Positions 48,888 through 64,000 of a DNA stretch of 64,000 nucleotides are shown here, in pieces. A program made the translations under genes and the position numbers. Positions within the stretch are counted from its first letter, which is position 1. Every line of letters starts with the position of its first letter. Under the pieces are notes generated by a model. The model was not told the DNA's origin, ran no database searches, and worked only from the letters and a program-made list of their open reading frames with translations. Origin of the DNA: Bacilli bacterium (GTDB taxonomy: Bacteria; Bacillota_I; Bacilli_A; RF39; UBA660); assembly GCA_017938725.1 (NCBI GenBank), contig JAGBAW010000026.1, forward strand, positions 9,014 through 73,013. Reading direction: 5' to 3'.

Positions 48888-48940
48888 CTCTTACAATAAT
48901 TATATAATAATTGATTGAAAAAATAAATAAAATTATGTAG

Positions 48941-49820: not shown

Positions 49821-49898
49821 TTTTTTTATTATTTATTGCTTTTCTTATAAAAAAATGGTTTAATTATATTATAGATAATCATAGTATGGAGGATTAAT

Positions 49899-52800
49899 AT
49901 GAATAAGATAAAAGAATTTATTTTAAAATATAAAATTATTTTATTAATAGTTTTATTAGTAATAGCCTCTTTTGGTATATACTTCTTTGCTTCTGCGGAA
50001 GAGGATATATATGCGAATCAAATAGAGGTTACTAATGCTATTAGTAAAATAGTAGATGGCACGCCAAATGAAGATGGTAGTTTTGACCCTAATGATGATG
50101 CAGGTAATGATTCATCAAATAGTAATAAGATAGTTAGAAATTTTGATTCAATTACCTATGATGTATCATATAATCTCAGGTATAAAGAAAGTACTAACTT
50201 GAGCGCAGAAGATCAAAAATTGGATAACATTAGAAATGCTATAATTGATGTACTACTTCCTACATCTATAAGTGCAAATGTTTCTTATGGTGGGAATTCT
50301 GATATAAATCAGGGCCCAAGTAGTGCTAAAGAGGTTACTATAAATGGTATTAATTATAATTATTATATGTTTGAAATTAATGGTATAGATATCTCCTCAC
50401 CAAGGACAAGTAGTATTGTAGTATCAAATATTAATTCAAAAAATAATACTAAAATAGAACCTATTATAAGAGTAAGGGAAAGTACAGATCAATCAGCTGT
50501 TGCAATAGATAATAATACGGATATAAATAATATATCAAAATTAAATGTTGAACCTGTTATTGTATCTGCCAAAGAAAATTATGGCATTAAATTATATCCA
50601 GGGGTTCTAAAAAAGGATTATGATAACGCTACTATTCCTGTTGGTGTTGTTATTTATTTACCAAAGGATCCAAACAAGGGAATTAGAGGAATCGAGGTTC
50701 CAAGTAGTGTAGAATTTAATATGACTATAAATGATACAACAAATAGTTCTTCTATTATCGGTACTCCTACAATTAGTAATTACGATAGTAGCTTATATAC
50801 AATAGATGGACTTCCATCAGCTGATGCTACTAATAATGGTAATGCTGGAATTATAGTAAATGGCAATACATTCACATTAAACTTTACGGAATTAAAGTTC
50901 AGCAATAATGCTGTTTCAATAAATGATGTTGATGTTAACTATTTATCATCAAAGATGGTGCTATTTAATGTTCAAAGGACAACACCAAAAGCAAATATAA
51001 CCTATTCAATAGGTGCAACAAATGGTGTAATAACAAGTAATAATATAGAAATGAATTATAATTATGATCCTTATATTGGTGATTATAAAACAAAAGTTGA
51101 GTTTGTTAATAAAAATGGCTCAATACCAAATCCAGGGGAGGCAACATATTACTTTAATGAAGAATTTGATATAAAAAATACAATTCAATATGGATTTAAT
51201 GGAACTTACTCAGGTGATAATCTTAATGGCTTTGTAAATTATTTAAAAATAGATGAAGATGCAATTGAACTATTAGAGTCTGATAATATTAGTGATGAAA
51301 CAAAGGATTATATAGTTAAGTTCTCTGGTACAGATAGTCCAACTAAGGATAACTATTCAGTTAAGTATGGTGTTGGAAAGTGGGATTCATCATATTTTGA
51401 AATTAGTGGTACATGCCATATATCAAGTAAAGAGGATTTAATGAATTATTATGGTAGTTCATGCGTAAATGATAAAAATATTGTATGGTATGATACTATC
51501 GAAGAAGCAAAGAAAAATGGAAGTATAATACTTATACAATTTGATTATTCTGGTGATTTTTCCGCAGGAACTAGTGCTACATTAACTTTTAAAGCAAGGG
51601 CAAAAAATAATAGTTCAAACGTGGGGAGCACATTTGCTGTAATATCAAAAGGTATTACTACTTGGAATGATAATACATATTATTTATCTGAAACGCCAAT
51701 GCCTTTACTTGATTCTAGTACAGGGGACACAAGTATGTACTACAAAAAGACAGAATATGATGCTAATCACAATATTATAGCGAACACTAATAATCCATCG
51801 GGTAGTTATGGTAATACATTACTAGTTTCTGCATTTAAAGTTGGTTTTGATAGTATTATTACTAAAAATAGTTATGATAGTGAAAAAAGTACAATATATT
51901 CTGGACTAGATGATCCAGTTGAAATAATTTTAACGCCTACACTTTCAACTTATGTGGGGAATAAGATCGAGTCTGTTTCTATAAATGTTGTTTTACCACA
52001 AGGATTAGAATTATATATTAAAAAGGGAGATAAGATTCCTACTATTGATAATGCTGCTCCATCATATAAGACTCTTATGTATAGTTTCACAAGTGATGAA
52101 ATTGCAAAAAATAATGGTAAAATACCAAATCTCATACTTCATGCATATATATCGGTAGGGACTCCTGATAATACAATAGCGGATATAACGGCCGCAATAG
52201 ATGCAGTGGTTAGTAATGGTGATAAAAAATATTCTTCAATTACGTCAATAGATAAAAGAACAATAGGTGCAAGATTAACTTTAAGAAATACAAATAAGAT
52301 TAATGCACTTGGCACAATTAATCAAACTTATATTGATAAAAATGGAGAATTTACATATAAAATGAGGGCATCAAATTTATCAAGTGATGCAGCAACATTA
52401 GAATTATTAAATATACTACCATATTCAGGTGATAGTATTGGGGATGGTTCCAAATTTTCTGGTACATTGTCAGTAGCAATACAAGATGTTTTACCTGAAG
52501 GATATAAGATATATTATACTAGTGATGCGGCAAAGACAATACTTAAAAATGAAATTGATTCATCAGAGATAAAATGGATTGAATGGTCTGATTATAATAC
52601 ATATCGTAAAGATATAACAGCAATAAAAATAGTGTCAACATCACAGATCGCCTCTGGAGGATATTTTGTAAATGATACTGGTTTAACATTAAAAATAAAA
52701 ACTGATGGGAACAAAGAAACTGATATTTATTATAATAATTTCTATATATTAGAAAGAAATGCAAAATTATGTGAAGATGGTTCATCAGATTTACAAACAC

Positions 52801-53861
52801 AGGGCGTAGAATGCGATCCAAATTTAAAAGGAACACTTATATACCCATCTAATACTTCAAATGTATCTGTTTATAATAGAACTATTTCAGGAAAAGTATT
52901 TGAAGATGAAGATTACAATGGATTATATGAAGATGAAAAAAAGCTAAGTAATCAAATAGTTGAACTATATAGGTTAAACAAAGAGGGAGAATTTGACCCT
53001 AATAATCCATTAGATGTAATTAGTGATGCAGATGAAAAAGTATCCAAATCAGATGTAACAACAGATAATAATGGGACATATTTATTTAATTCATTATCAT
53101 CGGGTAGTTATTATGTAAAAGTAACATTTGATTGTGACAAATATTCCGTTACAGATAAAAATAAAACAACAATAGATACCTTAGTTGATACTTCTTCAAT
53201 AGATTCAGACTTTATTGCTATACCTACTGAAAATTCTAATACATGTAGCGCAGTATCAAATATTATTACTTTAAATAATGATAATATAAATGCAAGAAAT
53301 ATTGATTTAGGCTTGAGAATAAAACAAAACTTCGATATAAAAATAAGTAAATATATTACAAACGTTACAATAAACTCTAATAGAGGGACACAATCAATTG
53401 ACTATGATAAGCAAACTAAGGTAAAAATTGACGTAAAAAATCTAAAAAATACGTCATTTAGGGTAACATATAATTTTGAAATAGAAAATACTAAGTATTT
53501 TCCTGGAACTATTGGTACTATAATGGAATCTATACCTGAGGGTATGACATTTGATCCTTCACTTTCAGAAAATGACGGATGGTATGAAACATCAAATGGT
53601 ACATTATATTATGAATATTTATCAAATACATTAATAATGCCTGGAGAAAAATATCATATAAAGATAGTATTAGATCTAGTAACAGATGAAGGTGGAGATT
53701 TTGTAAATATTGTATTGGCTGATGATTTAAGAGTAATGGGATCAGCATCAGATATTATTACTGATACAGAAATTGAAATACTTCCAGATGGAGAAACTGA
53801 AAACCCGGGTGAAGATTCAAATGGAGATACAAATGAAGATGAAGAAGGTGATTTTGAATGA
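49899..53861 (+). CDS. Giant membrane-anchored/secreted surface protein with an SdrD-B/CnaB-type domain
   Basis: N-terminal TM/signal. SGKVFEDEDYNG...NNGTYLFNSLSSGSYYVKV CnaB-like fold. Acidic C-terminus and no sorting signal. Its stop overlaps the next start (ATGA). Confidence 0.7.
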   Translation: MNKIKEFILKYKIILLIVLLVIASFGIYFFASAEEDIYANQIEVTNAISKIVDGTPNEDGSFDPNDDAGNDSSNSNKIVRNFDSITYDVSYNLRYKESTNLSAEDQKLDNIRNAIIDVLLPTSISANVSYGGNSDINQGPSSAKEVTINGINYNYYMFEINGIDISSPRTSSIVVSNINSKNNTKIEPIIRVRESTDQSAVAIDNNTDINNISKLNVEPVIVSAKENYGIKLYPGVLKKDYDNATIPVGVVIYLPKDPNKGIRGIEVPSSVEFNMTINDTTNSSSIIGTPTISNYDSSLYTIDGLPSADATNNGNAGIIVNGNTFTLNFTELKFSNNAVSINDVDVNYLSSKMVLFNVQRTTPKANITYSIGATNGVITSNNIEMNYNYDPYIGDYKTKVEFVNKNGSIPNPGEATYYFNEEFDIKNTIQYGFNGTYSGDNLNGFVNYLKIDEDAIELLESDNISDETKDYIVKFSGTDSPTKDNYSVKYGVGKWDSSYFEISGTCHISSKEDLMNYYGSSCVNDKNIVWYDTIEEAKKNGSIILIQFDYSGDFSAGTSATLTFKARAKNNSSNVGSTFAVISKGITTWNDNTYYLSETPMPLLDSSTGDTSMYYKKTEYDANHNIIANTNNPSGSYGNTLLVSAFKVGFDSIITKNSYDSEKSTIYSGLDDPVEIILTPTLSTYVGNKIESVSINVVLPQGLELYIKKGDKIPTIDNAAPSYKTLMYSFTSDEIAKNNGKIPNLILHAYISVGTPDNTIADITAAIDAVVSNGDKKYSSITSIDKRTIGARLTLRNTNKINALGTINQTYIDKNGEFTYKMRASNLSSDAATLELLNILPYSGDSIGDGSKFSGTLSVAIQDVLPEGYKIYYTSDAAKTILKNEIDSSEIKWIEWSDYNTYRKDITAIKIVSTSQIASGGYFVNDTGLTLKIKTDGNKETDIYYNNFYILERNAKLCEDGSSDLQTQGVECDPNLKGTLIYPSNTSNVSVYNRTISGKVFEDEDYNGLYEDEKKLSNQIVELYRLNKEGEFDPNNPLDVISDADEKVSKSDVTTDNNGTYLFNSLSSGSYYVKVTFDCDKYSVTDKNKTTIDTLVDTSSIDSDFIAIPTENSNTCSAVSNIITLNNDNINARNIDLGLRIKQNFDIKISKYITNVTINSNRGTQSIDYDKQTKVKIDVKNLKNTSFRVTYNFEIENTKYFPGTIGTIMESIPEGMTFDPSLSENDGWYETSNGTLYYEYLSNTLIMPGEKYHIKIVLDLVTDEGGDFVNIVLADDLRVMGSASDIITDTEIEILPDGETENPGEDSNGDTNEDEEGDFE

Positions 53862-56530
53862 AAATAAAAAAATTAAGTAAAATATTTATTATAATAACTT
53901 TCATTTTCCTTCTTCTACCTTTTAAAAATGTAGAAGCTGCAGATGCCACATATCATTATTATTGGCTTAAAACTGCAAATTATATAGACGAGAGCTATAT
54001 AGGAAAAAGTTATACCATTAATGGGGGAACCATTCATATAGAAAAAAATTTTTTGCTTCATGAAGTTAATCAAGGAAATAGTTGGTATCATGGATATTGT
54101 TTACATGCAGGGAAAGTTGTCTTGGGTAATCAACCATTAAAATTATATGAAGGTTTTACGCAATTAAAAAATTCTTCTAACAAGTTATTATCAAAGAGCC
54201 AGCAGATATTACTTAAAAATATAGTTGCTAGTGGATATCAAAATGGGAATAGAAAAGTAAATGGTAGTATACTTGATTCCAGTGCAAGGCATGATGTAGG
54301 TAGACAACAATATAGTTGTAAATCTAAAACCGTATGTGAAAAAATTATAGCCACACAACTATTAGTATGGGAAGCAATGGAAGGGGTAAGAACAAATTAT
54401 AACCCTGATAGTTTAAAAGAAAGTCATAAATCATATTATAACTTTGTAATAAATAATTCTGGAATATATAAACAATATAAGGCTATACTAGATGACGCTA
54501 AAAATTTAACTACCGATGGGAAAATACCTGCGGCATTTGGCAAAACATATACTTTACACTGGATTGATTCTTTAGGAAAATATTCATATTCCTCTTGGAA
54601 TAAAAGTAGTAATAAATATACTAGAGATAGTTTGCCTATAGGTAGTTATAGATATAAAACAGATACAAAGGGTAAAATTTCTCTTAGTATGAATGGAAAT
54701 AATCTTTATATTGATTCATCTGGAGCATTTACTAAAGCAGATAGTTACGATTTGAACTTTTATTTAACAAAGGGTAGTACATTGGATGTTAATAATGAAT
54801 TTAGGTGGTATAAATTTACCAGTGGGTCAGGCTATCAAGATATTTTAATGGGGGATCATAAAGTTGAATTTATGCAATCATTAAAAGTAAAAACAGAAAA
54901 AGGTAAATTTTACATAGCTAAATATTCAAATGATTCTGGCACTATAAAGAAATTAACAGGTGCAGAATTTGAAGTTTATAAATGTAAAAAGAAAGGTAGT
55001 TGTGATAAAAAATCTACTGGAAAAATAGATTTGGGAAGTAATTATTATGGATATTTAGAGATAAATAAGTCAGGTCTATATAGAGTAGTTGAGTCAAAAG
55101 CACCATCTGGATATAATAAAATAAGTGAAGTATATGTAAATTTAAAAATTACAGATGGTGGAAAGGTAGAAATTATATCTGTTGATAGGGGATTGAACTC
55201 TAATGAGAGTATTAAAATTACAAAGGGTGAATCAACAGGCCGTATATATTTATCTATATATAATACTAAGAAATCTTTAGAAATTAAAAAAATTGATGGT
55301 GTAACTGGAAATGCAATAAAAGGTGCAACATTCCAAATAAAAGATTCTAAAGGTAATATATTGAAATTTAATAGAACAAAAGAGGGATACTATGATTACT
55401 CAGCATCTGGCAAAATAGATAAAATAGTAGATAGTAATATGAGTTCATATCATATATCTTTATTACCTGTTGGTTCATATACATTAATAGAAACTGCAGT
55501 GCCTTCTCCATATGTATTGCCAGCTAAACAAACAGATAGAGAAACTTATTTTAAAGTTACTTCTACAAATAGTAATCCATATAGTTATTGTACTTTAAGC
55601 AGTCTTACTAGCAAAAGTTGTATAGGAAATACTAATAATGTTGCAATTAAAGTAAAAAATTATACAACAAAGGTAGTCGTAAATAAAACAGGTAACGAGG
55701 GTGCCAAGTTATCTGGTGTAAAATTTAAACTTTATGATAAATCAAAATCAAAAGAAATAATTTTAAGTTTAAATAATACTGGTTCATATAATTATGTTCA
55801 AAATCAAACAGGAACTACAATTGATTTAGTAACAAACGAAAATGGACAAATAATAATCAATAATTTACCTGAAGGGACATATTACTTAAAAGAAATAGAG
55901 GCAGCATTAGGATATGAAATAGATGAGTCAGTACAGTGGACAGAGATTAAAGTATCTATAAATACTAAATTAAGTAATATATCTCAAATAGGAAAAACAG
56001 AAGTACAAATATCAAATGCTAAAGGTACATTTAATTTCTATAAAATAGATGAAGATGGAAACTATTTAAATTCTGGTAAATTTAAATTACAAGTTTATAA
56101 TGATAATAATGGAAAATATGAAGATGCAGCAGTTAACTACGATAACGAAAAAAATGTATATTCAATTGATAAAACGGGCAAAAGTGATATTTACACATTT
56201 ACTCCAACAAATGGGGTTGTAACATTTGTTAATGTTGATAAAGCTGGTAAGTATAGAATTGTTGAAATTGAAGCACCTGAAGGATTTGTGTTACCATCAT
56301 CTAATGATGCATTTGTTGAATTTTCTGTAAATGGTAATGGCTATATAAATGGTGATTTAACAATGATTAATAAAAAAGTTACTAAAGGTGATGGGAAACA
56401 AGCACAAGCAGAACTTATTATAAATATTCAAACAGGTCAGCAAAGAATTCGATATTTTGTTATTATTGCAGTATTACTTGTAATAATTACAGCACTATTC
56501 ATACTAAAAAATAAATTTAATAAAAAATAG
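53858..56530 (+). CDS. Thioester-domain (TQXA-like) adhesin with four Cna-B/SpaA-type domains and a sortase-B-like sorting signal
   Basis: Signal peptide. Candidate thioester Cys in YHGYCLHAG, with ATQLLVWEA. Four GxxFxVY...G.Y.L.E...P.GY modules. C-terminal NIQTG, then a hydrophobic helix and a KNKFNKK tail. Confidence 0.75.
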   Translation: MKIKKLSKIFIIITFIFLLLPFKNVEAADATYHYYWLKTANYIDESYIGKSYTINGGTIHIEKNFLLHEVNQGNSWYHGYCLHAGKVVLGNQPLKLYEGFTQLKNSSNKLLSKSQQILLKNIVASGYQNGNRKVNGSILDSSARHDVGRQQYSCKSKTVCEKIIATQLLVWEAMEGVRTNYNPDSLKESHKSYYNFVINNSGIYKQYKAILDDAKNLTTDGKIPAAFGKTYTLHWIDSLGKYSYSSWNKSSNKYTRDSLPIGSYRYKTDTKGKISLSMNGNNLYIDSSGAFTKADSYDLNFYLTKGSTLDVNNEFRWYKFTSGSGYQDILMGDHKVEFMQSLKVKTEKGKFYIAKYSNDSGTIKKLTGAEFEVYKCKKKGSCDKKSTGKIDLGSNYYGYLEINKSGLYRVVESKAPSGYNKISEVYVNLKITDGGKVEIISVDRGLNSNESIKITKGESTGRIYLSIYNTKKSLEIKKIDGVTGNAIKGATFQIKDSKGNILKFNRTKEGYYDYSASGKIDKIVDSNMSSYHISLLPVGSYTLIETAVPSPYVLPAKQTDRETYFKVTSTNSNPYSYCTLSSLTSKSCIGNTNNVAIKVKNYTTKVVVNKTGNEGAKLSGVKFKLYDKSKSKEIILSLNNTGSYNYVQNQTGTTIDLVTNENGQIIINNLPEGTYYLKEIEAALGYEIDESVQWTEIKVSINTKLSNISQIGKTEVQISNAKGTFNFYKIDEDGNYLNSGKFKLQVYNDNNGKYEDAAVNYDNEKNVYSIDKTGKSDIYTFTPTNGVVTFVNVDKAGKYRIVEIEAPEGFVLPSSNDAFVEFSVNGNGYINGDLTMINKKVTKGDGKQAQAELIINIQTGQQRIRYFVIIAVLLVIITALFILKNKFNKK

Positions 56531-56615
56531 GAATTATTAATATAATTTCTTTTTTTTATATTTATATGTATAAAAAAAATGATTTTTACCAAATTATTTA
56601 TTGAAGGAGGAAATT

Positions 56616-57281
56616 ATGAAAAAATTTATTGTAGCATTAATGGTTATTTTCTTATCAGCATGTACTTTAGGTGCAGCAGTTACACCAAAACAAAAGGTAT
56701 CTGAATTTTTAGATAAATATAAAAATCAAGATTCAAATATTATTTCTCAATTAGAAGAAACAATCAAAAATGATATTACTAACACTGATTATAGAGATAG
56801 ATATAAAACTTTAATGACTAATCAGTATAAGAATATGGAATATGATATTAAAGAAGAAATAATTGAAGAAGATAATGCTGTAGTAGAGGTAGAAATAACA
56901 GTATATGATTATGCATCTGCTATTAGAAATTCAAATGAATATTTAAATGAACACTCAGATGAATTTTCTAAGGATAAAACAACTGCTAATATTGCTGAAG
57001 ATATAAAAGATACAGCCGAAGATATAAAAGATAATGTAGAAGAAAAAGCAAATGAAGCAAAAGATAACTTAGAATCTGATAATAATACTAATAAAACTGA
57101 TACTACTGGTAATTATGATGAAGATAAGTTTATGGATTATAAATTAAAACAAATGGAAAATGTAACTGATAAAGTAAAATATACTATTGAATTTACTTTA
57201 ACTAAAGTTAATGGAGAATGGCAACTTGATGCATTAAGTAATAGTGATATAGAAAAATTACATGGTATATACACAGGATAA
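56616..57281 (+). CDS. Putative lipoprotein
   Basis: Lipobox LSACT and an acidic repeat (AEDIKD). Confidence 0.5.
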   Translation: MKKFIVALMVIFLSACTLGAAVTPKQKVSEFLDKYKNQDSNIISQLEETIKNDITNTDYRDRYKTLMTNQYKNMEYDIKEEIIEEDNAVVEVEITVYDYASAIRNSNEYLNEHSDEFSKDKTTANIAEDIKDTAEDIKDNVEEKANEAKDNLESDNNTNKTDTTGNYDEDKFMDYKLKQMENVTDKVKYTIEFTLTKVNGEWQLDALSNSDIEKLHGIYTG

Positions 57282-57338
57282 GGACTATTTATAGTCTTTT
57301 TTTTAATTTAACTAATATATTTATATTGAGGTATGCTT

Positions 57339-58352
57339 ATGAAGAAAATTTTAATTTCATTTATATTATTATTTTGTTTTTGCATAAATGCTAATGCTTT
57401 ATCTGTTCCTAGTAACAATGCAATATTAATTGATCAAGATTCAGGAAGAGTATTATATTCAAAGAGTTCTAACAATCCACATTTAATTGCAAGTACTACA
57501 AAAATAATGACTGCAGTTCTTGCAATAGAATCTGGTAAATTAGATGAAATAGTTACTATAAATGAAAGTGTTTTAGAATCTCATGGATCAGGTATTTATG
57601 TATCTGTAGGTGAAAAAATTACTCTTAGAAACTTAGTATATGGCCTACTTTTAAGAAGTGGTAATGATGCCGCTCTTGCAATTGAAGATTATTTAGGGGG
57701 ACATGAGAAATTTGTTAAAGCAATGAATGATAAGGCTATAGAAATTGGCATGAAAAATACTACATTTAATAATGCTAGTGGACTTGATGATGATGAAAAG
57801 GGTAATTATTCAACTTGTTATGACATGGCGATATTAATGAAGTACGCAAATAATTTATATGATTTTAGAGAAATAGATAGTACTAAAAAAATTATTGTTC
57901 AAACAGATATGAAAACATATTCATGGACAAATAAAAATAAATTATTATTTTCATATAAATATGCAACAGGTGGTAAAACCGGCTATACTATAAAAGCCAA
58001 AAGGACACTTGTAACAAGTGCTACGAAAGATAATGTTAATCTAATTGCGGTAACATTTAATGATCCGGATGATTTTGATACACATAAAAAATTATATGAA
58101 TATGGTTTTACTAATTATAGTAATTATCTAATAATAAATAAAGATAGGATAAAAATAAAAAGTGATAAATATAAAAATAGATTATATGTTAAAAATAATT
58201 ACTATTATTTAATGACAAATAATGAGAGGGAAAATATAAATACAAATGTTGTTATGTACGATAAGATGGATAAAGGCACCAGAGAAGTAGGATATATAGA
58301 AGTATTTTATAAAAATAAAAGTGTTCATAAAGAATATGTCTATGCAAAATAA
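57339..58352 (+). CDS. D-alanyl-D-alanine carboxypeptidase (S11)
   Basis: Signal peptide and an ASTTKIMT SxxK motif. Confidence 0.85.
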   Translation: MKKILISFILLFCFCINANALSVPSNNAILIDQDSGRVLYSKSSNNPHLIASTTKIMTAVLAIESGKLDEIVTINESVLESHGSGIYVSVGEKITLRNLVYGLLLRSGNDAALAIEDYLGGHEKFVKAMNDKAIEIGMKNTTFNNASGLDDDEKGNYSTCYDMAILMKYANNLYDFREIDSTKKIIVQTDMKTYSWTNKNKLLFSYKYATGGKTGYTIKAKRTLVTSATKDNVNLIAVTFNDPDDFDTHKKLYEYGFTNYSNYLIINKDRIKIKSDKYKNRLYVKNNYYYLMTNNERENINTNVVMYDKMDKGTREVGYIEVFYKNKSVHKEYVYAK

Positions 58353-58412
58353 TCAATTTGATTATTTTTTCTATTTATGTTATACTTTCTCTCGTAGTTT
58401 GGAGGAATAATT

Positions 58413-59141
58413 ATGTTAAGGTTACAAAAAGCAATTGCGGATTCAGGATTTTGTTCAAGAAGAAAAGCTGAGGAATATATAGTAAAAGGTAAAGTATCAG
58501 TTAATGGTAAAAAAGTTACGGAACTTGGTACAAAAGTATCTGAGAAAGACGAAATAATGGTAGATGGGAATGCCTTATTAAAACAAGATAAAGAATATTA
58601 TGTTTTTTATAAACCAAGAGGTGTAATTTGTTCTACAAATGATGATAAAGGAAGGAAGACAGTATTAGATTTCTTTAATTCAAATAAAAGATTATATCCA
58701 GTAGGTAGACTAGATTATGATACAACAGGTATTATATTTCTTACAAATGATGGTGAGTTTGCAAATATGATGCTTCATCCAAAAAATAATATACCTAAAG
58801 TTTATATAGCTAAATTAAGTGGAGTTATAGATGGTGCAGATATAAAAAAAATAAAAAGTGGTGTAGTTATTGATGAAGTTAAATGTACTCCAGACAGGGT
58901 AAAATTAAAAAGTGTTGATAGAAAAAATAATACATGTATTGTACAAATAACTATTCATGATGGAAGAAATCATGAAATAAAAAAAATATTTGGAAGTGTT
59001 GGACATGAAGTTTTAAAATTAAAAAGGGAATCGATAGGTTTTATTACACTTGACGGTTTAACATCTGGTAAATCAAGAAAATTAACAACTAAAGAGGTTA
59101 AACAATTATATGCTTATGCAAATGATACAAAAAGAGAATAA
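58413..59141 (+). CDS. rluB: Pseudouridine synthase (RsuA/RluB family)
   Basis: S4 domain (RLQKAIADSGFCSRR) and the catalytic GRLDYDTTG. Confidence 0.85.
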   Translation: MLRLQKAIADSGFCSRRKAEEYIVKGKVSVNGKKVTELGTKVSEKDEIMVDGNALLKQDKEYYVFYKPRGVICSTNDDKGRKTVLDFFNSNKRLYPVGRLDYDTTGIIFLTNDGEFANMMLHPKNNIPKVYIAKLSGVIDGADIKKIKSGVVIDEVKCTPDRVKLKSVDRKNNTCIVQITIHDGRNHEIKKIFGSVGHEVLKLKRESIGFITLDGLTSGKSRKLTTKEVKQLYAYANDTKRE

Positions 59142-59162
59142 GGAATATTATTTAATATAATA

Positions 59163-59198
59163 TAAAACTATTTTACAATATATAAAATAGTTTTTATT
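59163..59198. terminator. Bidirectional terminator
   Basis: 11-bp stem aaaactatttt / aaaatagtttt. Confidence 0.55.
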
Positions 59199-59269
59199 TG
59201 TAATAATCATTTTATATAATAGGTGCAAGAATATTAATACTAAAGAATGGGTAAATGGTAAATTCATAC

Positions 59270-60610
59270 TTACTTTGAAAGTGTGGTGCCTGGATAATAA
59301 TGAGATAATATACTTTGGTAGTTATATCCAGCATTTGCCATGCCATTCGCACCATATTGACTCATACCAACACCATGACCATATCCTCTTGTTGTAATAC
59401 TTGCAGTACTATCATTAATTGAAATATCAAAATCTGCACTTCTTAAACCTAATGTTTCTCTTACTTGTTTCCCAGTAAAAGTATAACCAGCAATTGTTAT
59501 TTCTTTAATATTATTTCCGTCTGTATAATTAATAACCTCAATAATTGAATCAGATGATAAATTAATGCCAAGTTTAGATGAGATTGTATTTAAATCCATT
59601 GTTGTTGTCCTTAAATAACTTGATGCAAATTTATCATAATCGGATGTAACACTAACTAAATAAGGATAATAATTACCAAATACATCAAGTGATGATTCCG
59701 TCTTACCATTATTGGTAGAATGATATAAAGCTTCAATATAATTTCCATTATATGCTAGATATTGTCCTTTTGTATATTCCACAGCATTTTTTATTTTATT
59801 ATAATAAGTATTATAAGATGATCCCCACTTACTTTGCATCTGCCCAGCATCAATATAAGCTTGCGTACTAACTGTGTCGGTTAGGGTCTTACCAGTACTT
59901 TTTGCTTTTAACGCATAAGTTCTTGCTAGAATACTTTGAGCTTTCAAGGCCTCCGAATTAAAGGAAGCAGGCATTTCAGCAGCAACTACACCTATTACGT
60001 ATTCTTCTAAATCAATTGTAATAACAGAACCATTACTTCTATGAATAGTAACAGTAGTTCCTGAAATTATTTGATTTGATTGCATACTTGAACTACCTGA
60101 CGTAATTGTACTGTTATTACTTGTAGAAACTTGAGTATTATTGGTTTTAGTTGAACTATTATTTGGTTGTGATTGATTTGAAATAGTAATTTTTTGCGAA
60201 CTTTGATTATTAATTTTAGTTTTTACATTATTAGTACTAGTTGTACTATTAGATTCTTGGCTTTTATTTTCACTTACATTTTCGTTTGAGTTTCCAATTT
60301 GTATTTTATTTTCTTCAGTTTTATTATCTTCCTTAGCAATATACGTTATAGTATTTTTAAAATTTGGAACATATGTAATATTTTCTTTTGTTATACCACT
60401 ATTTATATTAGTAAGTATTATACTTCCAATAATAACTCCACTACAAGTAAGAACTATTTTTCCTTTTTTTAAATCAATTTTCATTTTATTTATATAATCT
60501 TTTATTTCATCAACAATTTTTTTACCTTTTTTAAAAGAACCTCCAAATTCATAATTAACATCTATTTCTAAATATAATATATCATCTTTAATAATATGGC
60601 ATCTAAACAT
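59270..60610 (-). CDS. SpoIID/LytB domain protein
   Basis: N-terminal TM, an S/T/N-rich linker, and a C-terminal SpoIID domain (YHSTNNGKTE, GHGVGMSQYGA). Confidence 0.75.
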   Translation of the reverse strand: MFRCHIIKDDILYLEIDVNYEFGGSFKKGKKIVDEIKDYINKMKIDLKKGKIVLTCSGVIIGSIILTNINSGITKENITYVPNFKNTITYIAKEDNKTEENKIQIGNSNENVSENKSQESNSTTSTNNVKTKINNQSSQKITISNQSQPNNSSTKTNNTQVSTSNNSTITSGSSSMQSNQIISGTTVTIHRSNGSVITIDLEEYVIGVVAAEMPASFNSEALKAQSILARTYALKAKSTGKTLTDTVSTQAYIDAGQMQSKWGSSYNTYYNKIKNAVEYTKGQYLAYNGNYIEALYHSTNNGKTESSLDVFGNYYPYLVSVTSDYDKFASSYLRTTTMDLNTISSKLGINLSSDSIIEVINYTDGNNIKEITIAGYTFTGKQVRETLGLRSADFDISINDSTASITTRGYGHGVGMSQYGANGMANAGYNYQSILSHYYPGTTLSK

Positions 60611-60710
60611 ATAATCACCATTATTAATGTGAACAATTTTTTGTAAAATAAACTTTAAATACTTGTTATTTAAATTATAATATGGTATATTATTAGAGTA
60701 AAAATTTTAT

Positions 60711-60787
60711 GGCGGAATTGGTGAAGTGGTTAACACGGCAGATTGTGGCTCTGTTATGCAAGGGTTCGACTCCCTTATTTCGCCCCA
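60711..60787 (+). tRNA. tRNA-His (anticodon GUG)
   Basis: Hand-folded. G-1 and 7-bp acceptor GCGGAAT/ATTTCGC, discriminator C. D-arm GGTG..CAC. Anticodon stem GCAGA/TCTGT with loop TTGTGGC (GTG). T-arm AAGGG-TTCGACT-CCCTT. Encoded CCA. Confidence 0.85.
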
Positions 60788-60886
60788 TCGATTGAATTTT
60801 ACGCACACCTTTGTGCTAAGATAAAGTAAAAGTTCGTAATACTTGATATTATGGACTTTTTTCTTTGCAAAGGTGGTGAGTTTATA

Positions 60887-61183
60887 ATGAGAATCGTGTC
60901 CATAGAAATTTTAGAATTTCCTTTGTGTATAAAAAGTAAGATATTAAGAATTAAAAATATTACCAAACTAAATATAGAATATATTGCAGGTAAGAATATT
61001 GTATTTAATAACTCTAATTTAGGATTAAAGGAACCACATAAGATTATCATTAGTAATAATACTCAAGGTATCGTTTTACTTTGTTATGATGATGACACTA
61101 ATTTATATGATGAAAATTTATCTAGGACTATTACGATAACTGAATTAACCAACATAGTTGAATACTTATTAAAAGAAAATTAA
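60887..61183 (+). CDS. Hypothetical protein, first ORF of the tRNA-His island
   Basis: About 99 aa from ATG 60887; the track gives 60851. No family recognised. Confidence 0.3.
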   Translation: MRIVSIEILEFPLCIKSKILRIKNITKLNIEYIAGKNIVFNNSNLGLKEPHKIIISNNTQGIVLLCYDDDTNLYDENLSRTITITELTNIVEYLLKEN

Positions 61184-61382
61184 AAAAATTTTAAAATTTA
61201 TTTTTTCCTTTATTTATAAGGGATAAATAGCCGTTTTAAGGGGTGCCTTTCAAACTATTACAAATAATTCCTAACAAAAAAGAATCAAGATTAGATAAAG
61301 AAAGTTTAACATTACTATCAATAAATGCCTAAAATATGATAAAATATATATGTATATATCGGTAACTTTGGAGGTTATAAAT

Positions 61383-62204
61383 ATGAATGAATTATATTCA
61401 ATATGTTGGAATATTACCAATAAATGTAATGAAAATTGTAAATTCTGTTATAGAAAAATATGTGATGATAACTCGTTAGAGGAAAATAAAAAAATATTTG
61501 ATAATATATCTAAGATAAAGATTGATAAAATAACTTTTTCTGGTGGAGAACCATTATTATATGAAGATTTATTTAAATTAGGTGATTATATAAAAAGTAA
61601 GAATCCTGAAATTAAATTATCTTTAACTACTAATGGTCAAATGATAAATGATGACCTATTTAATAAGATAATAAACACATTTGATTGGATTTCGTTTTCT
61701 ATTGATAGTTCAAATACTAATGTTAATGATGAAATTGGTAGAGGTAAAAATCATCTTGAAAAGATAGTAAGTTTATTAGATAAATTTAATAATAAAATAA
61801 AACTAAAGATTAATACAGTTGCTAATAAATACAATATTGATGATTTAGAAAATATTTATAATATAATTTCAAAATATCATATTAGCAGATGGAAGATTTT
61901 TAGGTTCTATCCATTAAGAAAAGGAAAAGAAAATGAAAAGTTATTTTATTTAAATGATTCAGAGTCGCAATTAGTCGAAGACTATGTAACAAGTAAACAA
62001 AAGCATGATTCAAAAATAAAAATTCATTATAATAATTTAAATGAATTTACTACATCATACTTTAACATTTATCCAGATGGTAGTATTGAAAATAGTAAGG
62101 ATGAAGATATCGGAAATTTATTATATGATGATATTTTAAACATTTTAAAAATAAAGAAAAATGACTTAATTAATCATAATTTAAGAAAAAACAATGAATT
62201 ATAA
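61383..62204 (+). CDS. Prokaryotic viperin-like radical SAM enzyme (pVip candidate)
   Basis: TNKCNENCKFCY vs viperin TRQCNYKCGFCF. KITFSGGEPLL vs KINFSGGEPFL. ISFSIDSSNTNVNDEIGRGKNH vs [30 protein letters not shown] vs KINSVIN. RWKIF vs RWKVF. No SPASM cysteines. GGAGGT ribosome-binding site. Confidence 0.65.
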   Translation: MNELYSICWNITNKCNENCKFCYRKICDDNSLEENKKIFDNISKIKIDKITFSGGEPLLYEDLFKLGDYIKSKNPEIKLSLTTNGQMINDDLFNKIINTFDWISFSIDSSNTNVNDEIGRGKNHLEKIVSLLDKFNNKIKLKINTVANKYNIDDLENIYNIISKYHISRWKIFRFYPLRKGKENEKLFYLNDSESQLVEDYVTSKQKHDSKIKIHYNNLNEFTTSYFNIYPDGSIENSKDEDIGNLLYDDILNILKIKKNDLINHNLRKNNEL

Positions 62205-62226
62205 AAAATTCTGTTGTATTAATTTT

Positions 62227-62249
62227 GAGCAAGAGATTGCTCTTTTTTT
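62227..62249 (+). terminator. Rho-independent terminator immediately after the pVip gene
   Basis: gagcaa-gaga-ttgctc plus T7. Confidence 0.6.
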
Positions 62250-62265
62250 GTTGTTTAAATTTAGA

Positions 62266-62463
62266 AAGGAGATGAGTTTTATTAATTATTTCTTTGAAAT
62301 AGTCGTACCACAATTATTAGAGTATTTTAAAGAAAATGCAAAGGATGTTCCTTATTCTTTATTATCAGAAGTATTAATCAATAATAAGAACTATGAAAAA
62401 GAAGTAAAAGAAATGATTGAAAAATCTAATGAAATTAGTAAAAAATATATTAAAAAAAATTAA
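62266..62463 (+). CDS. Doubtful small ORF
   Basis: 65 aa if started at ATG 62266; the track's 89-aa form spans the terminator hairpin. Possibly not a real gene. Confidence 0.2.
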   Translation, partial: KEMSFINYFFEIVVPQLLEYFKENAKDVPYSLLSEVLINNKNYEKEVKEMIEKSNEISKKYIKKN

Positions 62464-62489
62464 ACTGTCAGCGACTACATTAGTGGGTC

Positions 62490-62529
62490 TTAGGGATATT
62501 CCCTAACAAGTAGATGGGTGTGTATACAC
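62490..62529 (+). promoter_or_regulatory. Two perfect palindromes (TTAGGGA-TAT-TCCCTAA and GTGTATACAC) upstream of ORF 62597
   Basis: Read directly at 62490-62506 and 62520-62529. Operator-like. Confidence 0.3.
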
Positions 62530-62596
62530 CATGCTTGATAGATTGAATTTTTATATTACGTAAGTCGTTCTCTAATTTATGAAAGGATAAATTTTT

Positions 62597-63151
62597 ATGA
62601 ATGATGAGTGGATAGAAAGAAAGCAAGTTCAAGATATGTTTTCATTAACAACCAAACAATTTGGAAGAGTTATGAGAAATATAAAGCGAAGACACGAACA
62701 TGATTATTATTTATGGATAAAAAGAGATAAGAATAGTAAATCAAAAATGTATATAAGTCAAGAATGTGTTGATTGGTTAAAAGAAGTTTATTTTAACAAA
62801 GAAGAACATTACTTAACTTCTGAAATCAGGTTTTATAAAAAGAAGATTTTTGATTTAGAAAATGAATTAGGAATAAGTCATAAAAGAAATAAATATGAAT
62901 CTTTTTCATTAAGATTTTTACCTTACTTATATGGTAAAAGTGTAAGTGCTATTCATGTAGCACTTCATAGGATGAAAAAGGTATTTCCTTATTCAATAAC
63001 TTTTGAAGATGATGGTGTTATATGTGTTAAAGAAGAGGGAATTAGATGGTTGTATGAAAATTATTTTAAAAGAGATTATTTAAAAGAATTAGAAGAATAT
63101 AAATGGGAATTAGAAATTAGAAAAAATAATGTGAAGGTCAAGACACACTAA
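62597..63151 (+). CDS. Phage-like putative DNA-binding protein with an internal duplication
   Basis: Basic HTH-like N-terminus (SLTTKQFGRVMRNIKRRH). Duplicated CV.E...WL.E.YF segments. Confidence 0.4.
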   Translation: MNDEWIERKQVQDMFSLTTKQFGRVMRNIKRRHEHDYYLWIKRDKNSKSKMYISQECVDWLKEVYFNKEEHYLTSEIRFYKKKIFDLENELGISHKRNKYESFSLRFLPYLYGKSVSAIHVALHRMKKVFPYSITFEDDGVICVKEEGIRWLYENYFKRDYLKELEEYKWELEIRKNNVKVKTH

Positions 63152-63205
63152 AGTTTATTTGGTATAATATTTATAGTTAAAACTTAATGAAATGAGGTGT
63201 TATTG

Positions 63206-64000
63206 TGAATATTGAGATTATACAAAAAGCATTGTTAGACTGTTACTCAAAAGATTTATGTTATCCTAAAGTTCAAGATGATTGGAATGACAATAATAAA
63301 TGCTTTGGTATGTGTGCAATAACATCTCTAATCATTAATGATTATTTTGGTGGAGAGATTTGTAAAATTCATGTGGATGAAATTAGTCATTATTTTAATT
63401 TAGTAGAAGATAAAATTATAGATTTAACTTCAAGTCAGTTTAATCATGATATAGATTATAAAGATTATCAAATTATAGATAGACAAAAAATATTAACTGA
63501 TGATACTAGGAATAGATATAACATATTAAAGGCAAGATTAATAAAAGCATTATTAAAACAGGTTGATGAAAAAGTATATTCTTGTAAATCATGCAATAAA
63601 TTAGTTGATAAGTTTCCTAATGATGCTACAGTATATCTAGGTAAAGATCAGACAATCATTTTTGTTGGAGAAGCCCCTGCTAATAATGGTTGGAGAAAAA
63701 GTCATAAATTATGGTGTGATATAAATGGTAAAGTTTTACCTAGTGGAGTTGTATTACAAAAATTATTTGATATTATAGATAGAAATATTTTTGAAACTAC
63801 ATTTTTAGAGTCAGTTAAGTGCTATCCATTAGAAAGAAAAAATTTAAAAACTTGTTCTAGTAATTGTAAGAATATAATGTTAGAACAACTAAAAATATTA
63901 AATCCTAAATTAATTATTACTTTAGGAGAATTTCCAACTAGAAATTTACTTAATTTTAAATTCAATAAATTTGCTGATGTAGTTGGCAACATATATGAAG
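63206..64000 (+). CDS. Fusion of a YunG-like Cys-rich domain with a UDG-superfamily (family-4-like) domain; 3' end outside the window
   Basis: N-terminus CFGMCAITSLIINDYFGGEI (YunG-like). C-terminus IIFVGEAPANNGWRKS, SGVVLQKLFD, VKCYPLE, then LIITLGE. This parallels UDG family 4's GEAPG, GRAGQLL, VKCRPP and ALG motifs. GTG start after a GAGGTG ribosome-binding site. Confidence 0.45.

What the first reader, a model, noticed from the sequence alone, without database searches (positions are those of the whole stretch)
60711..64000. tRNA-His-adjacent island carrying a viperin-like gene and unusual partners
A tRNA-His sits downstream of a SpoIID-like housekeeping gene. After it come genes with no housekeeping logic:
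- an unknown 99-aa ORF;
- a stand-alone viperin-like radical SAM gene with its own promoter and terminator;
- a phage-like DNA-binding protein behind two perfect palindromes;
- a YunG-like/UDG-like fusion that runs off the window.

tRNA 3' ends are classic integration sites, and pVips are anti-phage effectors that make ddh-nucleotide chain terminators. pVip loci are usually described with nucleotide kinases, but here the neighbours are a UDG-superfamily fusion and a regulator. This gene combination is not one I recognise as described.
Basis: partly seen in the sequence, partly recalled or inferred. Interest (0 to 1): 0.8.

Follow-up and report, generated by a model that had tools for sequence, protein, structure and literature searches.

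The report
Viperin-like gene in tRNA-His defence island
Next to a tRNA-His gene in an uncultured gut bacterium lies a small mobile island that has lost its recombinase and carries a divergent viperin-like enzyme as one of several swappable anti-phage cargoes. The two neighbours taken for its partners are the island's own DNA-binding protein and an ordinary chromosomal repair-type gene.

Summary

It is an island. Relatives carry a 578-aa large serine recombinase between the 98-aa ORF and the cargo. The window keeps only that gene's last 23 codons. Other genomes have tRNA-His directly beside YunG-UDG, an empty site.

The radical SAM gene fills a cargo slot bounded by a conserved promoter and terminator. 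In other genomes that slot holds unrelated modules, including a PADLOC candidate defence gene.

So the 184-aa protein (two excisionase/MerR-like winged helices) is island backbone. YunG-UDG is a conserved chromosomal gene. Neither is a viperin partner.

The enzyme has the viperin fold and viperin's triphosphate-binding residues. It fails the curated prokaryotic-viperin cut-off (158 vs 180 bits), reads C-W-N where viperins read N-x-H, and lacks the C-terminal RGG tail. It belongs to a large sister clade for which I found no characterisation.

Verdict: a defence island of a known kind, carrying a variant viperin whose product is untested.

The parts
60712..60787 (+). tRNA-His (GTG), the anchor of the island. 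Its 3' end CTTATTTCGCCCCAT (60774-60788) is the inferred attachment core.
   Evidence: ARAGORN and Rfam tRNA, 60 bits, on the identical contig L105. Homology to all related elements starts at 60708-60710. In L103, which lacks the tRNA, it starts at 60780.
60789..60886 (+). Island left arm. Includes the conserved hairpin GCACACCTTTGTGC (60803-60816) that follows the tRNA in every element.
   Evidence: Conserved in the window, L100 and L103. In L103 it is joined directly to an R-like block.
60887..61183 (+). 98-aa ORF of unknown function. It always lies between the tRNA and the serine recombinase. Inferred to be a recombinase accessory factor.
   Evidence: No family hit. 74% identical copies in L003/L015. 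Homologous to the 91-aa ORF that precedes the recombinase in tRNA-Leu elements, E 2e-6.
61261..61329 (+). Remnant of the large serine recombinase gene (last 23 codons). The rest has been deleted.
   Evidence: tblastn with the L003 recombinase matches residues 556-578 at 83% identity, E 1.9e-6, and gives no other hit in the window or in L105. L003 has 1.84 kb here where the window has 27 bp.
61256..61351 (+). Conserved block upstream of cargo slot 1. Contains the promoter-like TTAACA-18-TAAAAT (61306-61335).
   Evidence: Present upstream of different cargo in L099 and L104. Promoter scan.
61383..62204 (+). Viperin-like radical SAM enzyme, 273 aa, of the 'C-W-N' sister clade. This is the cargo of slot 1.
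   Evidence: NF038283 158.4 bits (cut-off 180). PADLOC pVip 1.6e-48. PDB viperins 5e-22 against 2e-7 for the next family. AF2 pLDDT 93.9, with the top 18 Foldseek hits all viperins at TM 0.75-0.85.
62227..62250 (+). Intrinsic terminator of the radical SAM gene. It marks the right edge of cargo slot 1.
   Evidence: The only terminator-like site in 60500-64000. Homology to elements with other cargo resumes at 62220-62225.
62272..62463 (+). Conserved 63-aa ORF of unknown function. Island backbone.
   Evidence: Present with or without the radical SAM gene in L003, L011, L099-L105. No family hit.
62490..62530 (.). Two dyad repeats upstream of the 184-aa gene: TTAGGGA-TAT-TCCCTAA and GTGTATACAC. Inferred operator.
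   Evidence: The intergenic block is 83% conserved across six elements. In L099 the second repeat is GTGTTAACAC, still palindromic.
62597..63151 (+). 184-aa protein with two winged-helix modules of the MerR/excisionase (Xis, AlpA) type. Island backbone.
63158..63204 (+). Right edge of the inserted segment, followed by the native YunG-UDG promoter (-10 box TGGTATAAT at 63160-63168).
   Evidence: Homology to the empty-site loci L110-L113 resumes here.
63205..64000 (+). YunG + family-4-like UDG fusion, 298 aa. It ends 101 nt past the window. It is a conserved neighbour of tRNA-His, not a viperin partner.
   Evidence: Pfam and NCBIfam. More than 1200 homologues at 84-98% identity. Sits in the chromosomal context DinB - tRNA-His - YunG-UDG - G5 - YlmH in L110-L113.

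Best explanation
The segment 60788-~63158 is a decayed integrative element inserted at the 3' end of tRNA-His, between that tRNA and its usual neighbour YunG-UDG.

Intact relatives read: tRNA-His, 98-aa ORF, large serine recombinase (578 aa), [cargo slot 1], 63-aa ORF, 184-aa tandem winged-helix protein. YunG-UDG, a second variable slot and a conserved 75-nt block (R) follow. R ends in a near-copy of the tRNA 3' end.

In the window strain the recombinase gene has been deleted, so the island is fixed in place.

Slot 1 is a cassette position between a conserved promoter and a conserved terminator. Here it holds one gene, a viperin-like radical SAM enzyme.

Inferred mechanism: the enzyme binds a nucleoside triphosphate and SAM. 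Its 5'-deoxyadenosyl radical abstracts a ribose hydrogen. It releases a modified, probably 3'-deoxy-3',4'-didehydro, nucleotide that poisons phage nucleic-acid synthesis. It acts alone, as single-gene pVips do.

Shown: anatomy, mobility signatures, cargo interchange, fold and residue conservation. Inferred: the product, the anti-phage role, the excisionase/regulator role of the 184-aa protein, and the exact crossover site.
For: Island:
- Contig L105 is 99.994% identical to window 48413-64000 and extends 5.1 kb further.
- Related loci share the tRNA and the island but have five different left flanks.
- The recombinase is present in L003, L015 and L099-L102 and is CcrB/XisF-like. Its 3' remnant is in the window.
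- Empty sites exist in L110-L113.
- R occurs in the 11 island-bearing loci long enough to show it and in none of the empty sites.
- L099 and L100 are 99% identical up to exactly the GCCCCA of R, then diverge.
- L103 shows an R-like block fused to the island's left arm, an attP-like or tandem junction.
- The same layout (tRNA, ~95-aa ORF, serine recombinase, cargo including this radical SAM gene) occurs at tRNA-Leu and tRNA-Arg in L007 and L020-L022.

Cargo interchange:
- Slot 1 holds rSAM+SDR+MBL (L003/L015), rSAM+GNAT+PNPOx (L011), NTP_transf_6+SET+SDR (L099), a 386-aa unknown (L100-103), or a DUF1016 nuclease (PADLOC PDC-S02, 2e-133)+LigT/LCM (L104).
- Slot 2 holds PifA-like KAP NTPase, PDC-M68, PDC-M30, or, in the window strain, TcmP+rSAM (PDC-M41A, 5e-83).

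Enzyme:
- Viperins are the best hits by HMM, PDB sequence search and fold search.
- The CxxxCxxC and GGE motifs are kept, as are the equivalents of mouse K120, K220, R245 and K247: K49, K142, R169 and K171, invariant or nearly so across the family.
- The pVip 'DSY...P.G' segment is kept as 'TSYFNIYPDG'.
- More distant clade members sit beside nucleotide enzymes: CYTH, PfkB kinase and nucleotide pyrophosphatase.
Against: - The enzyme scores below the curated viperin cut-off (158.4 < 180).
- The N-x-H motif of every solved viperin but one and of PGAP-annotated pVips is C-W-N here. The C-terminal RGG-aromatic tail is missing.
- The C-terminal 70 residues do not align to viperin by sequence.
- Many distant clade members lie beside, or are fused to, LysR regulators, which is unusual for defence genes.
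- Island boundaries are not clean. R lies downstream of YunG-UDG, not between the 184-aa gene and YunG-UDG. The 99%-identical block shared by L099 and L100 includes YunG-UDG. The mobile unit may therefore sometimes include YunG-UDG, or the locus may have grown by serial accretion.
- The att similarity is only 13 of 15 nt with a 2-nt gap. GCCCCAT twice in 20.7 kb is not rare by itself: 15 of 100 shuffles reach it.
- No empty site was found in the window's own species. All 13 contigs sharing its RluB carry the island.
- No experiment of any kind supports the model.
Confidence: 0.65

Rival explanations
1. The viperin-like enzyme, the 184-aa DNA-binding protein and the YunG-UDG fusion form one new multi-gene anti-phage system. 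For example, a regulator plus a glycosylase that acts on DNA carrying the modified nucleotide.
For: The three genes are adjacent and co-oriented in the window, in L003 and in L105. UDG-superfamily enzymes on mobile elements can be anti-phage effectors: Brig1 (PMC11078745) and Brig2 (bioRxiv 10.1101/2025.10.29.685425).
Against: - The 184-aa gene and YunG-UDG occur together without the radical SAM gene in L099-L104.
- The radical SAM gene occurs without them in L007 and L020-L025.
- L011 has the radical SAM gene and the 184-aa gene but no YunG-UDG.
- YunG-UDG stands alone next to DinB and tRNA-His in L110-L113.
- The radical SAM gene has its own promoter and terminator.
Confidence: 0.04
2. The enzyme is a viperin relative by descent but not a ddhNTP synthase. 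The C-W-x clade would perform different radical chemistry on a nucleotide or nucleoside, or serve a regulated metabolic or signalling role, and was picked up by mobile elements for another reason.
For: - It fails the curated family cut-off. Proteins with N-W-H or S-F-H and the RGG tail pass at 213-258 bits, while C-W-x proteins score 113-171.
- Two hallmark motifs are replaced or lost.
- The clade is large and coherent: 557 clusters at E <= 1e-30, with C-W-x in most of the top 150.
- Distant members are linked or fused to LysR, PfkB kinase, CYTH, U32 peptidase and methyltransferases.
- Close members are followed by SDR and MBL-fold hydrolase genes that could process a different product.
Against: - The triphosphate-binding lysines and arginine and the Tyr of the SY motif are conserved.
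- A natural viperin-like enzyme from T. virens also lacks the His (Phe instead) yet was crystallised with CTP and SAM.
- CYTH and kinase partners also accompany bona fide viperins (bioRxiv 10.1101/2023.09.13.557418).
- In this lineage the gene sits in slots that otherwise hold candidate defence systems.
Confidence: 0.22
3. There is no site-specific element. tRNA-His, YunG-UDG and R are conserved chromosomal anchors of a hypervariable defence locus whose contents are exchanged by homologous recombination. The serine recombinase is just another passenger.
For: - The mosaic pattern of conserved anchors and variable slots. L003 and L011 are 98.7% identical in the flank, then diverge inside the 98-aa ORF.
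- YunG-UDG is chromosomal elsewhere.
- The att-like similarity is short.
Against: - The recombinase always occupies the same position beside the tRNA, with its ~95-aa companion, at three different tRNA genes.
- Sharp junctions fall exactly at the GCCCCA of the tRNA and of R.
- L103 has an attP-like junction.
- One identical YunG-UDG protein (P0146) is found with three different left flanks.
Confidence: 0.09

Closest known systems
Prokaryotic viperins (pVips; Bernheim et al. 2021, cited from memory; NCBIfam NF038283; PADLOC pVip 'not associated with kinases')
   Same: Same fold (TM 0.75-0.85 to mouse, fungal and cnidarian viperins). Same CxxxCxxC and GGE motifs, the four basic triphosphate-binding residues, and the SY...P.G segment. 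Single-gene module, no kinase, embedded among defence genes on a mobile element.
   Different: 31% identity to a PGAP-annotated pVip. 158 bits against a cut-off of 180. C-W-N in place of N-W-H. No C-terminal RGG-aromatic tail. The C-terminal third is not alignable by sequence. It belongs to a separate clade of hundreds of clusters. The product is unknown.
Genomic islands moved by large serine recombinases into the 3' end of a conserved gene (the SCCmec/CcrAB type), and tRNA-integrated islands in general
   Same: A CcrB/XisF-like 578-aa recombinase in relatives. Insertion at the 3' end of a conserved gene. Short imperfect direct repeats. Evidence of tandem accretion (R and R' in L105; the L103 junction). 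Cargo-rich, and here immobilised by loss of the recombinase.
   Different: The target is a tRNA gene, which is usual for tyrosine integrases and, to my knowledge, uncommon for serine recombinases. One recombinase rather than a CcrA/CcrB pair. Scores are far below the Ccr cut-offs (148 against 900 bits). No recombination has been shown.
Defence hotspots in mobile elements (P2/P4 hotspots, from memory) and defence cassettes in integrons (cited within bioRxiv 10.1101/2025.10.29.685425)
   Same: Fixed positions between conserved backbone genes where unrelated defence modules replace one another. Here the slot is bounded by a conserved promoter block and a conserved terminator.
   Different: The backbone differs: serine recombinase, 98-aa ORF, 63-aa ORF and a tandem winged-helix protein. 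No attC-type sites were recognised. The hosts are uncultured low-G+C gut Bacilli.
Brig1/Brig2 anti-phage DNA glycosylases of the UDG superfamily (PMC11078745; bioRxiv 10.1101/2025.10.29.685425)
   Same: YunG-UDG has a UDG-superfamily domain and lies inside a defence-rich locus.
   Different: No PADLOC hit. It is family-4-like, with GEAP and HPSP motifs read directly from the sequence. It has more than 1200 near-identical homologues and a stable chromosomal context next to DinB. A repair role is therefore more likely than defence.
TcmP plus radical SAM partner pair (TIGR04474; PADLOC candidate system PDC-M41)
   Same: The two genes just past the window end, in slot 2 of the same strain. TcmP scores 193 bits against a cut-off of 53, and PDC-M41A gives 5e-83.
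   Different: The radical SAM partner matches PDC-M41B only weakly (5e-5) and DUF5131 weakly. It is unrelated to the viperin-like enzyme.

Membership tests
Viperin family, curated (NCBIfam NF038283 viperin_w_prok) | Whole-protein HMM score at or above the curated cut-off of 180 bits | tested here: not met
   158.4 bits. Ten further C-W-N-type relatives score 129-177. N-W-H and S-F-H proteins score 213-258.
Viperin family | Partial TIM-barrel radical SAM fold with the viperin C-terminal extension | tested here: met
   AF2 pLDDT 93.9. The top 18 Foldseek PDB hits are all viperins or viperin-like enzymes, E 3e-18 to 2e-15, TM 0.75-0.85, with 257-294 aligned columns.
Viperin family | CxxxCxxC cluster motif and GGE SAM-binding motif | tested here: met
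   C15/C19/C22 and G54-G55-E56 are invariant or nearly invariant in 41 sequences.
Viperin family | Basic residues that hold the NTP triphosphate (mouse K120, K220, R245, K247). Their roles are from my memory of the CTP complex; the numbering was checked against PDB alignments. | tested here: met
   K49, K142, R169 and K171 align to them and are invariant or >=90% conserved.
Viperin family | N-(aromatic)-H motif seven residues before the first cluster cysteine (mouse N77/H79) | tested here: not met
   C8-W9-N10, invariant in the family. Solved viperins have NYH, with one natural NYF. The PGAP-annotated M. hollandica pVip has NWH.
Viperin family | C-terminal RGG-x-aromatic tail | tested here: not met
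   The protein ends ...LINHNLRKNNEL. The tail is present in P0427, P0437, P0443 and the M. hollandica pVip.
Viperin family | Conversion of an NTP to a 3'-deoxy-3',4'-didehydro-NTP, and protection from phage | not testable with these tools
   Needs enzyme assay, LC-MS and plaque assays.
PADLOC pVip (viperins not associated with kinases) | Match to model PDLC02903 | tested here: met
   E 1.6e-48, 163.4 bits, profile positions 1-228 of 257. PADLOC's own reporting threshold was not available.
   Next-best NCBIfam hits are 88 bits or less, with MoaA at 68-70. PDB MoaA gives 8e-4 against 5e-22 for viperin. No cysteine lies beyond residue 27, so no second cluster and no SPASM domain.
tRNA-integrated genomic island | Variable content at a fixed tRNA site, with an empty site in some genomes | tested here: met
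   Variable content. The empty site tRNA-His/YunG-UDG in L110-L113, though in a different species (about 85% DNA identity).
tRNA-integrated genomic island | Recombinase gene at the island edge | tested here: inconclusive
   Absent from the window and from L105 except for a 23-codon remnant. Present and intact at that position in relatives.
tRNA-integrated genomic island | Direct repeat of the tRNA 3' end at the far boundary | tested here: inconclusive
   CTTATT--GCCCCAT in block R, 5.2 kb downstream and outside the window (L105 17526-17540), matches 13 of 15 nt. It is conserved in all elements and coincides with a sharp identity break. It lies beyond YunG-UDG and is short.
Excisionase / MerR-type winged-helix DNA-binding proteins (184-aa protein) | Fold match to Xis/AlpA/MerR N-terminal domains | tested here: inconclusive

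The most novel reading that the evidence does not exclude
The C-W-x clade is a functionally distinct branch of the viperin family. It comprises hundreds of 50%-identity clusters, mostly in gut Firmicutes. Curated viperin models exclude it, and I found no characterisation of it. Having lost the N-x-H motif and the RGG tail, it would make a nucleotide product other than the known ddhNTPs, or use a different substrate such as a diphosphate, a nucleoside or a sugar nucleotide. In close relatives the adjacent SDR and MBL-fold hydrolase would process that product further. Separately, the tRNA-targeting serine-recombinase elements, with a promoter-to-terminator cassette slot, would be a new vehicle for exchanging defence genes in uncultured gut Bacilli.
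Probability: 0.22. Interest if true: 0.65.

Novelty: new variant of a known kind. Interest (0 to 1): 0.42.

Why it matters
Viperins are one of the few immune enzymes shared by bacteria and humans, and their products are natural chain-terminating antivirals. A large sister clade keeps the nucleotide-binding core but has changed two hallmark active-site and lid features. It could widen the known chemistry of antiviral nucleotides, or show which features are dispensable.

The locus also gives a clean natural experiment. The same cassette slot, promoter and terminator hold different cargo in different gut bacteria. That makes it a compact source of candidate defence genes from organisms that cannot be cultured.

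The island itself, and the idea that the neighbours form a system, are ordinary or wrong. The value lies in the enzyme clade and the slot.

Tried and rejected
- **Exact look-up of the radical SAM protein.** It found only contigs under 2 kb. The contig was extended instead through the window's RluB protein.
- **Source genome.** It is not among the GTDB species representatives; the best hit was 87%.
- **Phage origin.** Rejected. IMG/VR holds no relative of the enzyme. GenBank phages hold only hits at 34% identity or less. PHROGs gave only generic radical SAM families.
- **RiPP/sactipeptide maturase with the 63-aa ORF as precursor.** Rejected. There is no SPASM domain or extra cysteines, and the 63-aa ORF persists in elements that lack the enzyme.
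- **MoaA, QueE or NrdG assignment.** Rejected on scores.
- **Block R.** No Rfam family. RNAalifold gave a weak structure with almost no covariation, so I do not claim an RNA.
- **Profile alignment to human viperin.** It aligned only residues 1-207, so equivalences in the nucleobase (beta-8) loop could not be set.
- **Literature.** Bernheim et al. 2021 is not in the held library. Searches for the roles of N77 and H79 found nothing usable.
- **Synteny test in the window.** Searching the window for homologues of the genes flanking the empty site (DinB, G5, YlmH) found none. I could not test whether the tRNA-His/YunG-UDG pair has moved in this genome.

Full report
**1. What is in the sequence**

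ARAGORN finds one tRNA in the 64-kb window, tRNA-His(GTG) at 60712-60787 on the + strand. SpoIID (PF08486, 5e-24) lies at 59270-60610 on the minus strand, so it is divergent from the tRNA.

Five co-oriented genes follow the tRNA.
- **98-aa ORF, 60887-61183.** The start is set by the RBS and by homologues. No family matches it in Pfam, NCBIfam, PADLOC or PHROGs.
- **Radical SAM gene.** Its true start is ATG 61383, giving 273 aa. More than 100 homologues of 270-274 aa begin there.
- **63-aa ORF, 62272-62463.**
- **184-aa ORF, 62597-63151.**
- **YunG (PF24585, 4.6e-32) + UDG (PF03167, 5.7e-07; family-4-like) fusion.** It starts at GTG 63205 and runs off the window.

The radical SAM gene has a promoter-like TTAACA-18-TAAAAT at 61306-61335. 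The only terminator-like hairpin in the region lies at 62227-62250, against 0.2 expected by chance.

Two dyad repeats lie upstream of the 184-aa gene.
- TTAGGGA-TAT-TCCCTAA (62490-62506) is the only G+C-containing 7-3-7 repeat in the window.
- GTGTATACAC (62520-62529) is a perfect 10-mer.
- The whole intergenic block is 83% conserved across six related elements. In L099 the second repeat reads GTGTTAACAC, which is still palindromic.

**2. Extending the contig**

The window's RluB protein occurs on 13 public contigs. One of them, L105, is 99.994% identical to window 48413-64000 and continues 5.1 kb further.

Beyond the window end come the following. Window-equivalent coordinates are L105 + 48412.
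- The end of YunG-UDG (298 aa).
- TcmP (TIGR04474, 193 bits; PADLOC PDC-M41A, 5e-83).
- A second, unrelated 263-aa radical SAM gene.
- A conserved 75-nt block, here called R.
- A 145-aa minus-strand gene.
- A decayed second copy of the block, R'.
- A small RelA/SpoT synthetase.
- Phosphoketolase.

Neither the window nor L105 holds a recombinase gene.

**3. It is an island, and it was mobile**

Homology between the window and related loci begins at the tRNA. This holds for L003/L011 (Hadza gut MAG, 'uncultured Bacilli'), L015, L099, L100-102 and L104. These loci have five different left flanks: SpoIID, GtrA, an unrelated set of genes in L015, CotJB/Mn-catalase, and GlmS.

In L003, L015 and L099-L102 a 578-aa large serine recombinase sits between the 98-aa ORF and the cargo. 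It carries Resolvase and Recombinase domains and is CcrB/XisF-like, though far below those families' cut-offs. The window has 27 bp where L003 has 1.84 kb. Window 61261-61329 still encodes the recombinase's last 23 residues at 83% identity, E 1.9e-6. The recombinase was therefore deleted in this lineage.

The same layout occurs at tRNA-Leu (L007) and tRNA-Arg (L020): tRNA, a ~95-aa ORF, a serine recombinase, then cargo that includes this radical SAM gene. The small ORFs are homologous (E 2e-6) and the recombinases are 37% identical.

The loci L110-L113 come from contigs of 258-420 kb. They show DinB, tRNA-His, 125 bp, YunG-UDG, G5, YlmH. The 98-aa ORF, the 184-aa ORF and R are all absent. Homology to the window resumes at about 63158, just before the YunG-UDG -10 box.

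**4. The att question**

Block R follows the second variable slot in every island-bearing locus long enough to show it, and in none of the empty sites. It ends in TTATTGCCCCAT. The tRNA 3' end reads CTTATTTCGCCCCAT.

Three observations make R a real junction.
- L099 and L100 are 99% identical from the slot-1 terminator to exactly the GCCCCA of R. They are unrelated beyond it, and their left parts are only 86% identical.
- After R each genome has a different terminator hairpin. In L003 and L011 the sequence after GCCCCA (TTGTGT...) resembles what follows the native tRNA in L110.
- L103 lacks the tRNA. There an R-like block ending TTATCGCCCCAT is fused directly to the island's left arm, as expected for an attP-like or tandem junction.

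Against this, the similarity is short. GCCCCAT occurring twice in 20.7 kb is reached by 15 of 100 shuffles. R also lies beyond YunG-UDG, not between the 184-aa gene and YunG-UDG.

I read the locus as serial accretion at tRNA-His, with YunG-UDG sometimes carried along. This step is inference. R has no Rfam match and only a weak predicted structure.

**5. The 'partners' are not partners**

Slot 1 lies between a conserved promoter block (61256-61351) and the conserved terminator. Its contents differ between genomes.

| Locus | Slot 1 contents |
|---|---|
| Window / L105 | radical SAM gene alone |
| L003, L015 | radical SAM + SDR + MBL-fold hydrolase |
| L011 | radical SAM + 114-aa ORF + GNAT + PNPOx |
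| L099 | NTP_transf_6 + SET + SDR |
| L100-103 | 386-aa unknown protein |
| L104 | DUF1016 nuclease (PADLOC PDC-S02, 2e-133) + LigT/LCM |

The 63-aa ORF and the 184-aa gene stay in place throughout, and so does YunG-UDG in every locus except L011.

Slot 2, after YunG-UDG, is also variable.

| Locus | Slot 2 contents |
|---|---|
| L003 | PifA-like KAP NTPase |
| L011 | HNH + DUF2326 (PDC-M68) |
| L099, L100 | 630-aa ABC-like ATPase |
| L104 | PDC-M30A-like + radical SAM |
| Window strain (L105) | TcmP + radical SAM (PDC-M41) |

YunG-UDG has more than 1200 homologues at 84-98% identity, many on very long contigs. In L110-L113 it is a stable chromosomal gene beside DinB. A repair role is the economical reading. 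A Brig1/Brig2-like defence role is possible but unsupported, since PADLOC gives no hit.

It is absent from the empty site. It is best read as the island's excisionase-like or regulatory DNA-binding protein, with the conserved dyad repeats as its likely operator. That reading is inferred.

**6. The enzyme**

*Evidence that it is viperin-like*
- The best NCBIfam hit is NF038283 'viperin family antiviral radical SAM protein' at 158.4 bits. The next family scores 88.
- PADLOC pVip 'not associated with kinases' gives 1.6e-48.
- Against PDB sequences, nine viperin or viperin-like entries score 5e-22 to 6e-19. The next family scores 2e-7. With the family profile the gap is 1e-33 against 2e-14.
- The AF2 model has pLDDT 93.9. 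Its top 18 Foldseek hits are all viperins, at TM 0.75-0.85 over the full length.

*Conserved features*
- CxxxCxxC and GGE.
- K49, K142, R169 and K171, which align to mouse K120, K220, R245 and K247. I checked the numbering against the printed PDB alignments. Their triphosphate-binding role is from my memory of the CTP complex.
- IGRG.
- 'TSYFNIYPDG', matching pVip 'DSYLMIGPNG'.

*Features not met*
- The curated cut-off of 180 bits.
- The N-x-H motif, which here is C8-W9-N10 and is invariant in the family.
- The C-terminal RGG-aromatic tail.

A control shows that these three go together. Proteins with N-W-H or S-F-H and the tail score 213-258 bits and pass. C-W-x and S-W-x proteins score 113-171 and fail. 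The PGAP-annotated pVip of the Methanomethylovorans hollandica plasmid reads SINWHIT...QRGGDHW and is 31% identical to the window protein.

*Size and context of the clade*

An exhaustive profile search finds 557 clusters (50% identity) at E <= 1e-30. In the top 150 the motif is CWN in 60, CWD in 15, CWL in 7, and NWH in only 2.

More distant members sit beside, or are fused to, LysR regulators, CYTH triphosphatase-like proteins, PfkB kinases, nucleotide pyrophosphatases, U32 peptidases and methyltransferases. This context is nucleotide-centred, like the kinase and triphosphatase partners described for viperins (bioRxiv 10.1101/2023.09.13.557418). It is not typical of defence genes.

One natural fungal viperin-like enzyme also lacks the His (Phe instead) and still binds CTP and SAM in the crystal. 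Loss of the His alone is therefore not disqualifying.

*Conclusion on the enzyme*

It very probably works on a nucleoside triphosphate by viperin-like radical chemistry. It is not a member of the curated viperin family, and its product is unknown.

**7. Verdict**

The claim that made the finding exciting, a new gene combination of a pVip with a UDG fusion and a regulator, does not survive comparison with related loci.

What remains is a defence island of a familiar kind: a recombinase-borne element with cargo hotspots, here immobilised. It carries a variant viperin-like enzyme from a large sister clade for which I found no characterisation.

That clade and the promoter-to-terminator cassette slot are the parts worth following up. 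Interest is moderate.

Noticed in passing
L105 17463-17577 and 18272-18402 (window-equivalent about 65875-65989 and 66684-66814, outside the window); also L003 16707-16793, L011 15817-15893, L099/L100 10898-10972, L104 about 13630-13725: A conserved 75-nt block 'R'. It has a TATAAT-like box, a hairpin (AAGTATT...AATACTT) and a helix TGGGTGCAA/TTGCCCCA, and it ends in a near-copy of the tRNA-His 3' end. Each copy is followed by a different terminator hairpin. I read it as attR. A small RNA or a recombinase binding site is not excluded. No Rfam match.
   Followed up: partly
L105 15792-17439 (window-equivalent 64204-65851): Just past the window end the same strain carries TcmP (three-Cys-motif partner protein, TIGR04474) plus a second, unrelated 263-aa radical SAM protein. 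Together they match PADLOC candidate system PDC-M41. The island therefore holds two different radical SAM-based candidate defences.
   Followed up: partly
L072, L074, L078 (563-aa proteins); L081, L097 (550-557 aa); L050-L065 (396 aa): Distant C-W-N viperin-like domains are fused to a full LysR regulator (HTH plus substrate-binding domain). Two other size classes were only partly examined: 550-557-aa proteins whose C-terminal tails look like the neighbouring PfkB kinase by eye (no HMM scan run), and 396-aa proteins with an unassigned C-terminal extension. Separate LysR genes neighbour 33 of 87 loci. An enzyme-regulator fusion of a viperin relative is not something I know to be described.
   Followed up: partly
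L003 10826-12182; L015 10860-12231; L007 9180-9992: In close relatives the viperin-like gene is followed by an SDR oxidoreductase and an MBL-fold hydrolase. In L007 it is preceded by an RNase Z / cyclic-nucleotide-phosphodiesterase-like MBL protein with a faint Apyc1 match. These could process the nucleotide product. The window strain lacks them.
   Followed up: no
L103 4205-4330: A diverged R-like block is fused directly to the island's left arm, downstream of Mob_Pre, PemK and DUF8370/8371 genes and with no tRNA present. This looks like two elements in tandem, or an attP-type junction caught in an assembly.
   Followed up: partly
L110-L113 6800-7897: In other gut Bacilli, tRNA-His and YunG-UDG lie immediately downstream of a DinB-type Y-family polymerase gene. 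This suggests a repair role for the uncharacterised YunG+UDG fusion, which has more than 1200 near-identical homologues.
   Followed up: no
window 48413-57300 (= L105 1-8900): Upstream of the PBP5/RluB/SpoIID genes lie two very large surface proteins (1320 aa, SdrD_B-like; 890 aa, SpaA pilin-like). This is consistent with a Gram-positive, spore-forming gut organism, not a wall-less Bacilli lineage.
   Followed up: no
L099 5150-7011; L100 5854-7014: Alternative slot-1 cargoes have no PADLOC match: an NTP_transf_6 + SET-domain + SDR trio, and a 386-aa protein with no family at all. Their position in a defence cassette slot makes them candidate new defence genes.
   Followed up: no
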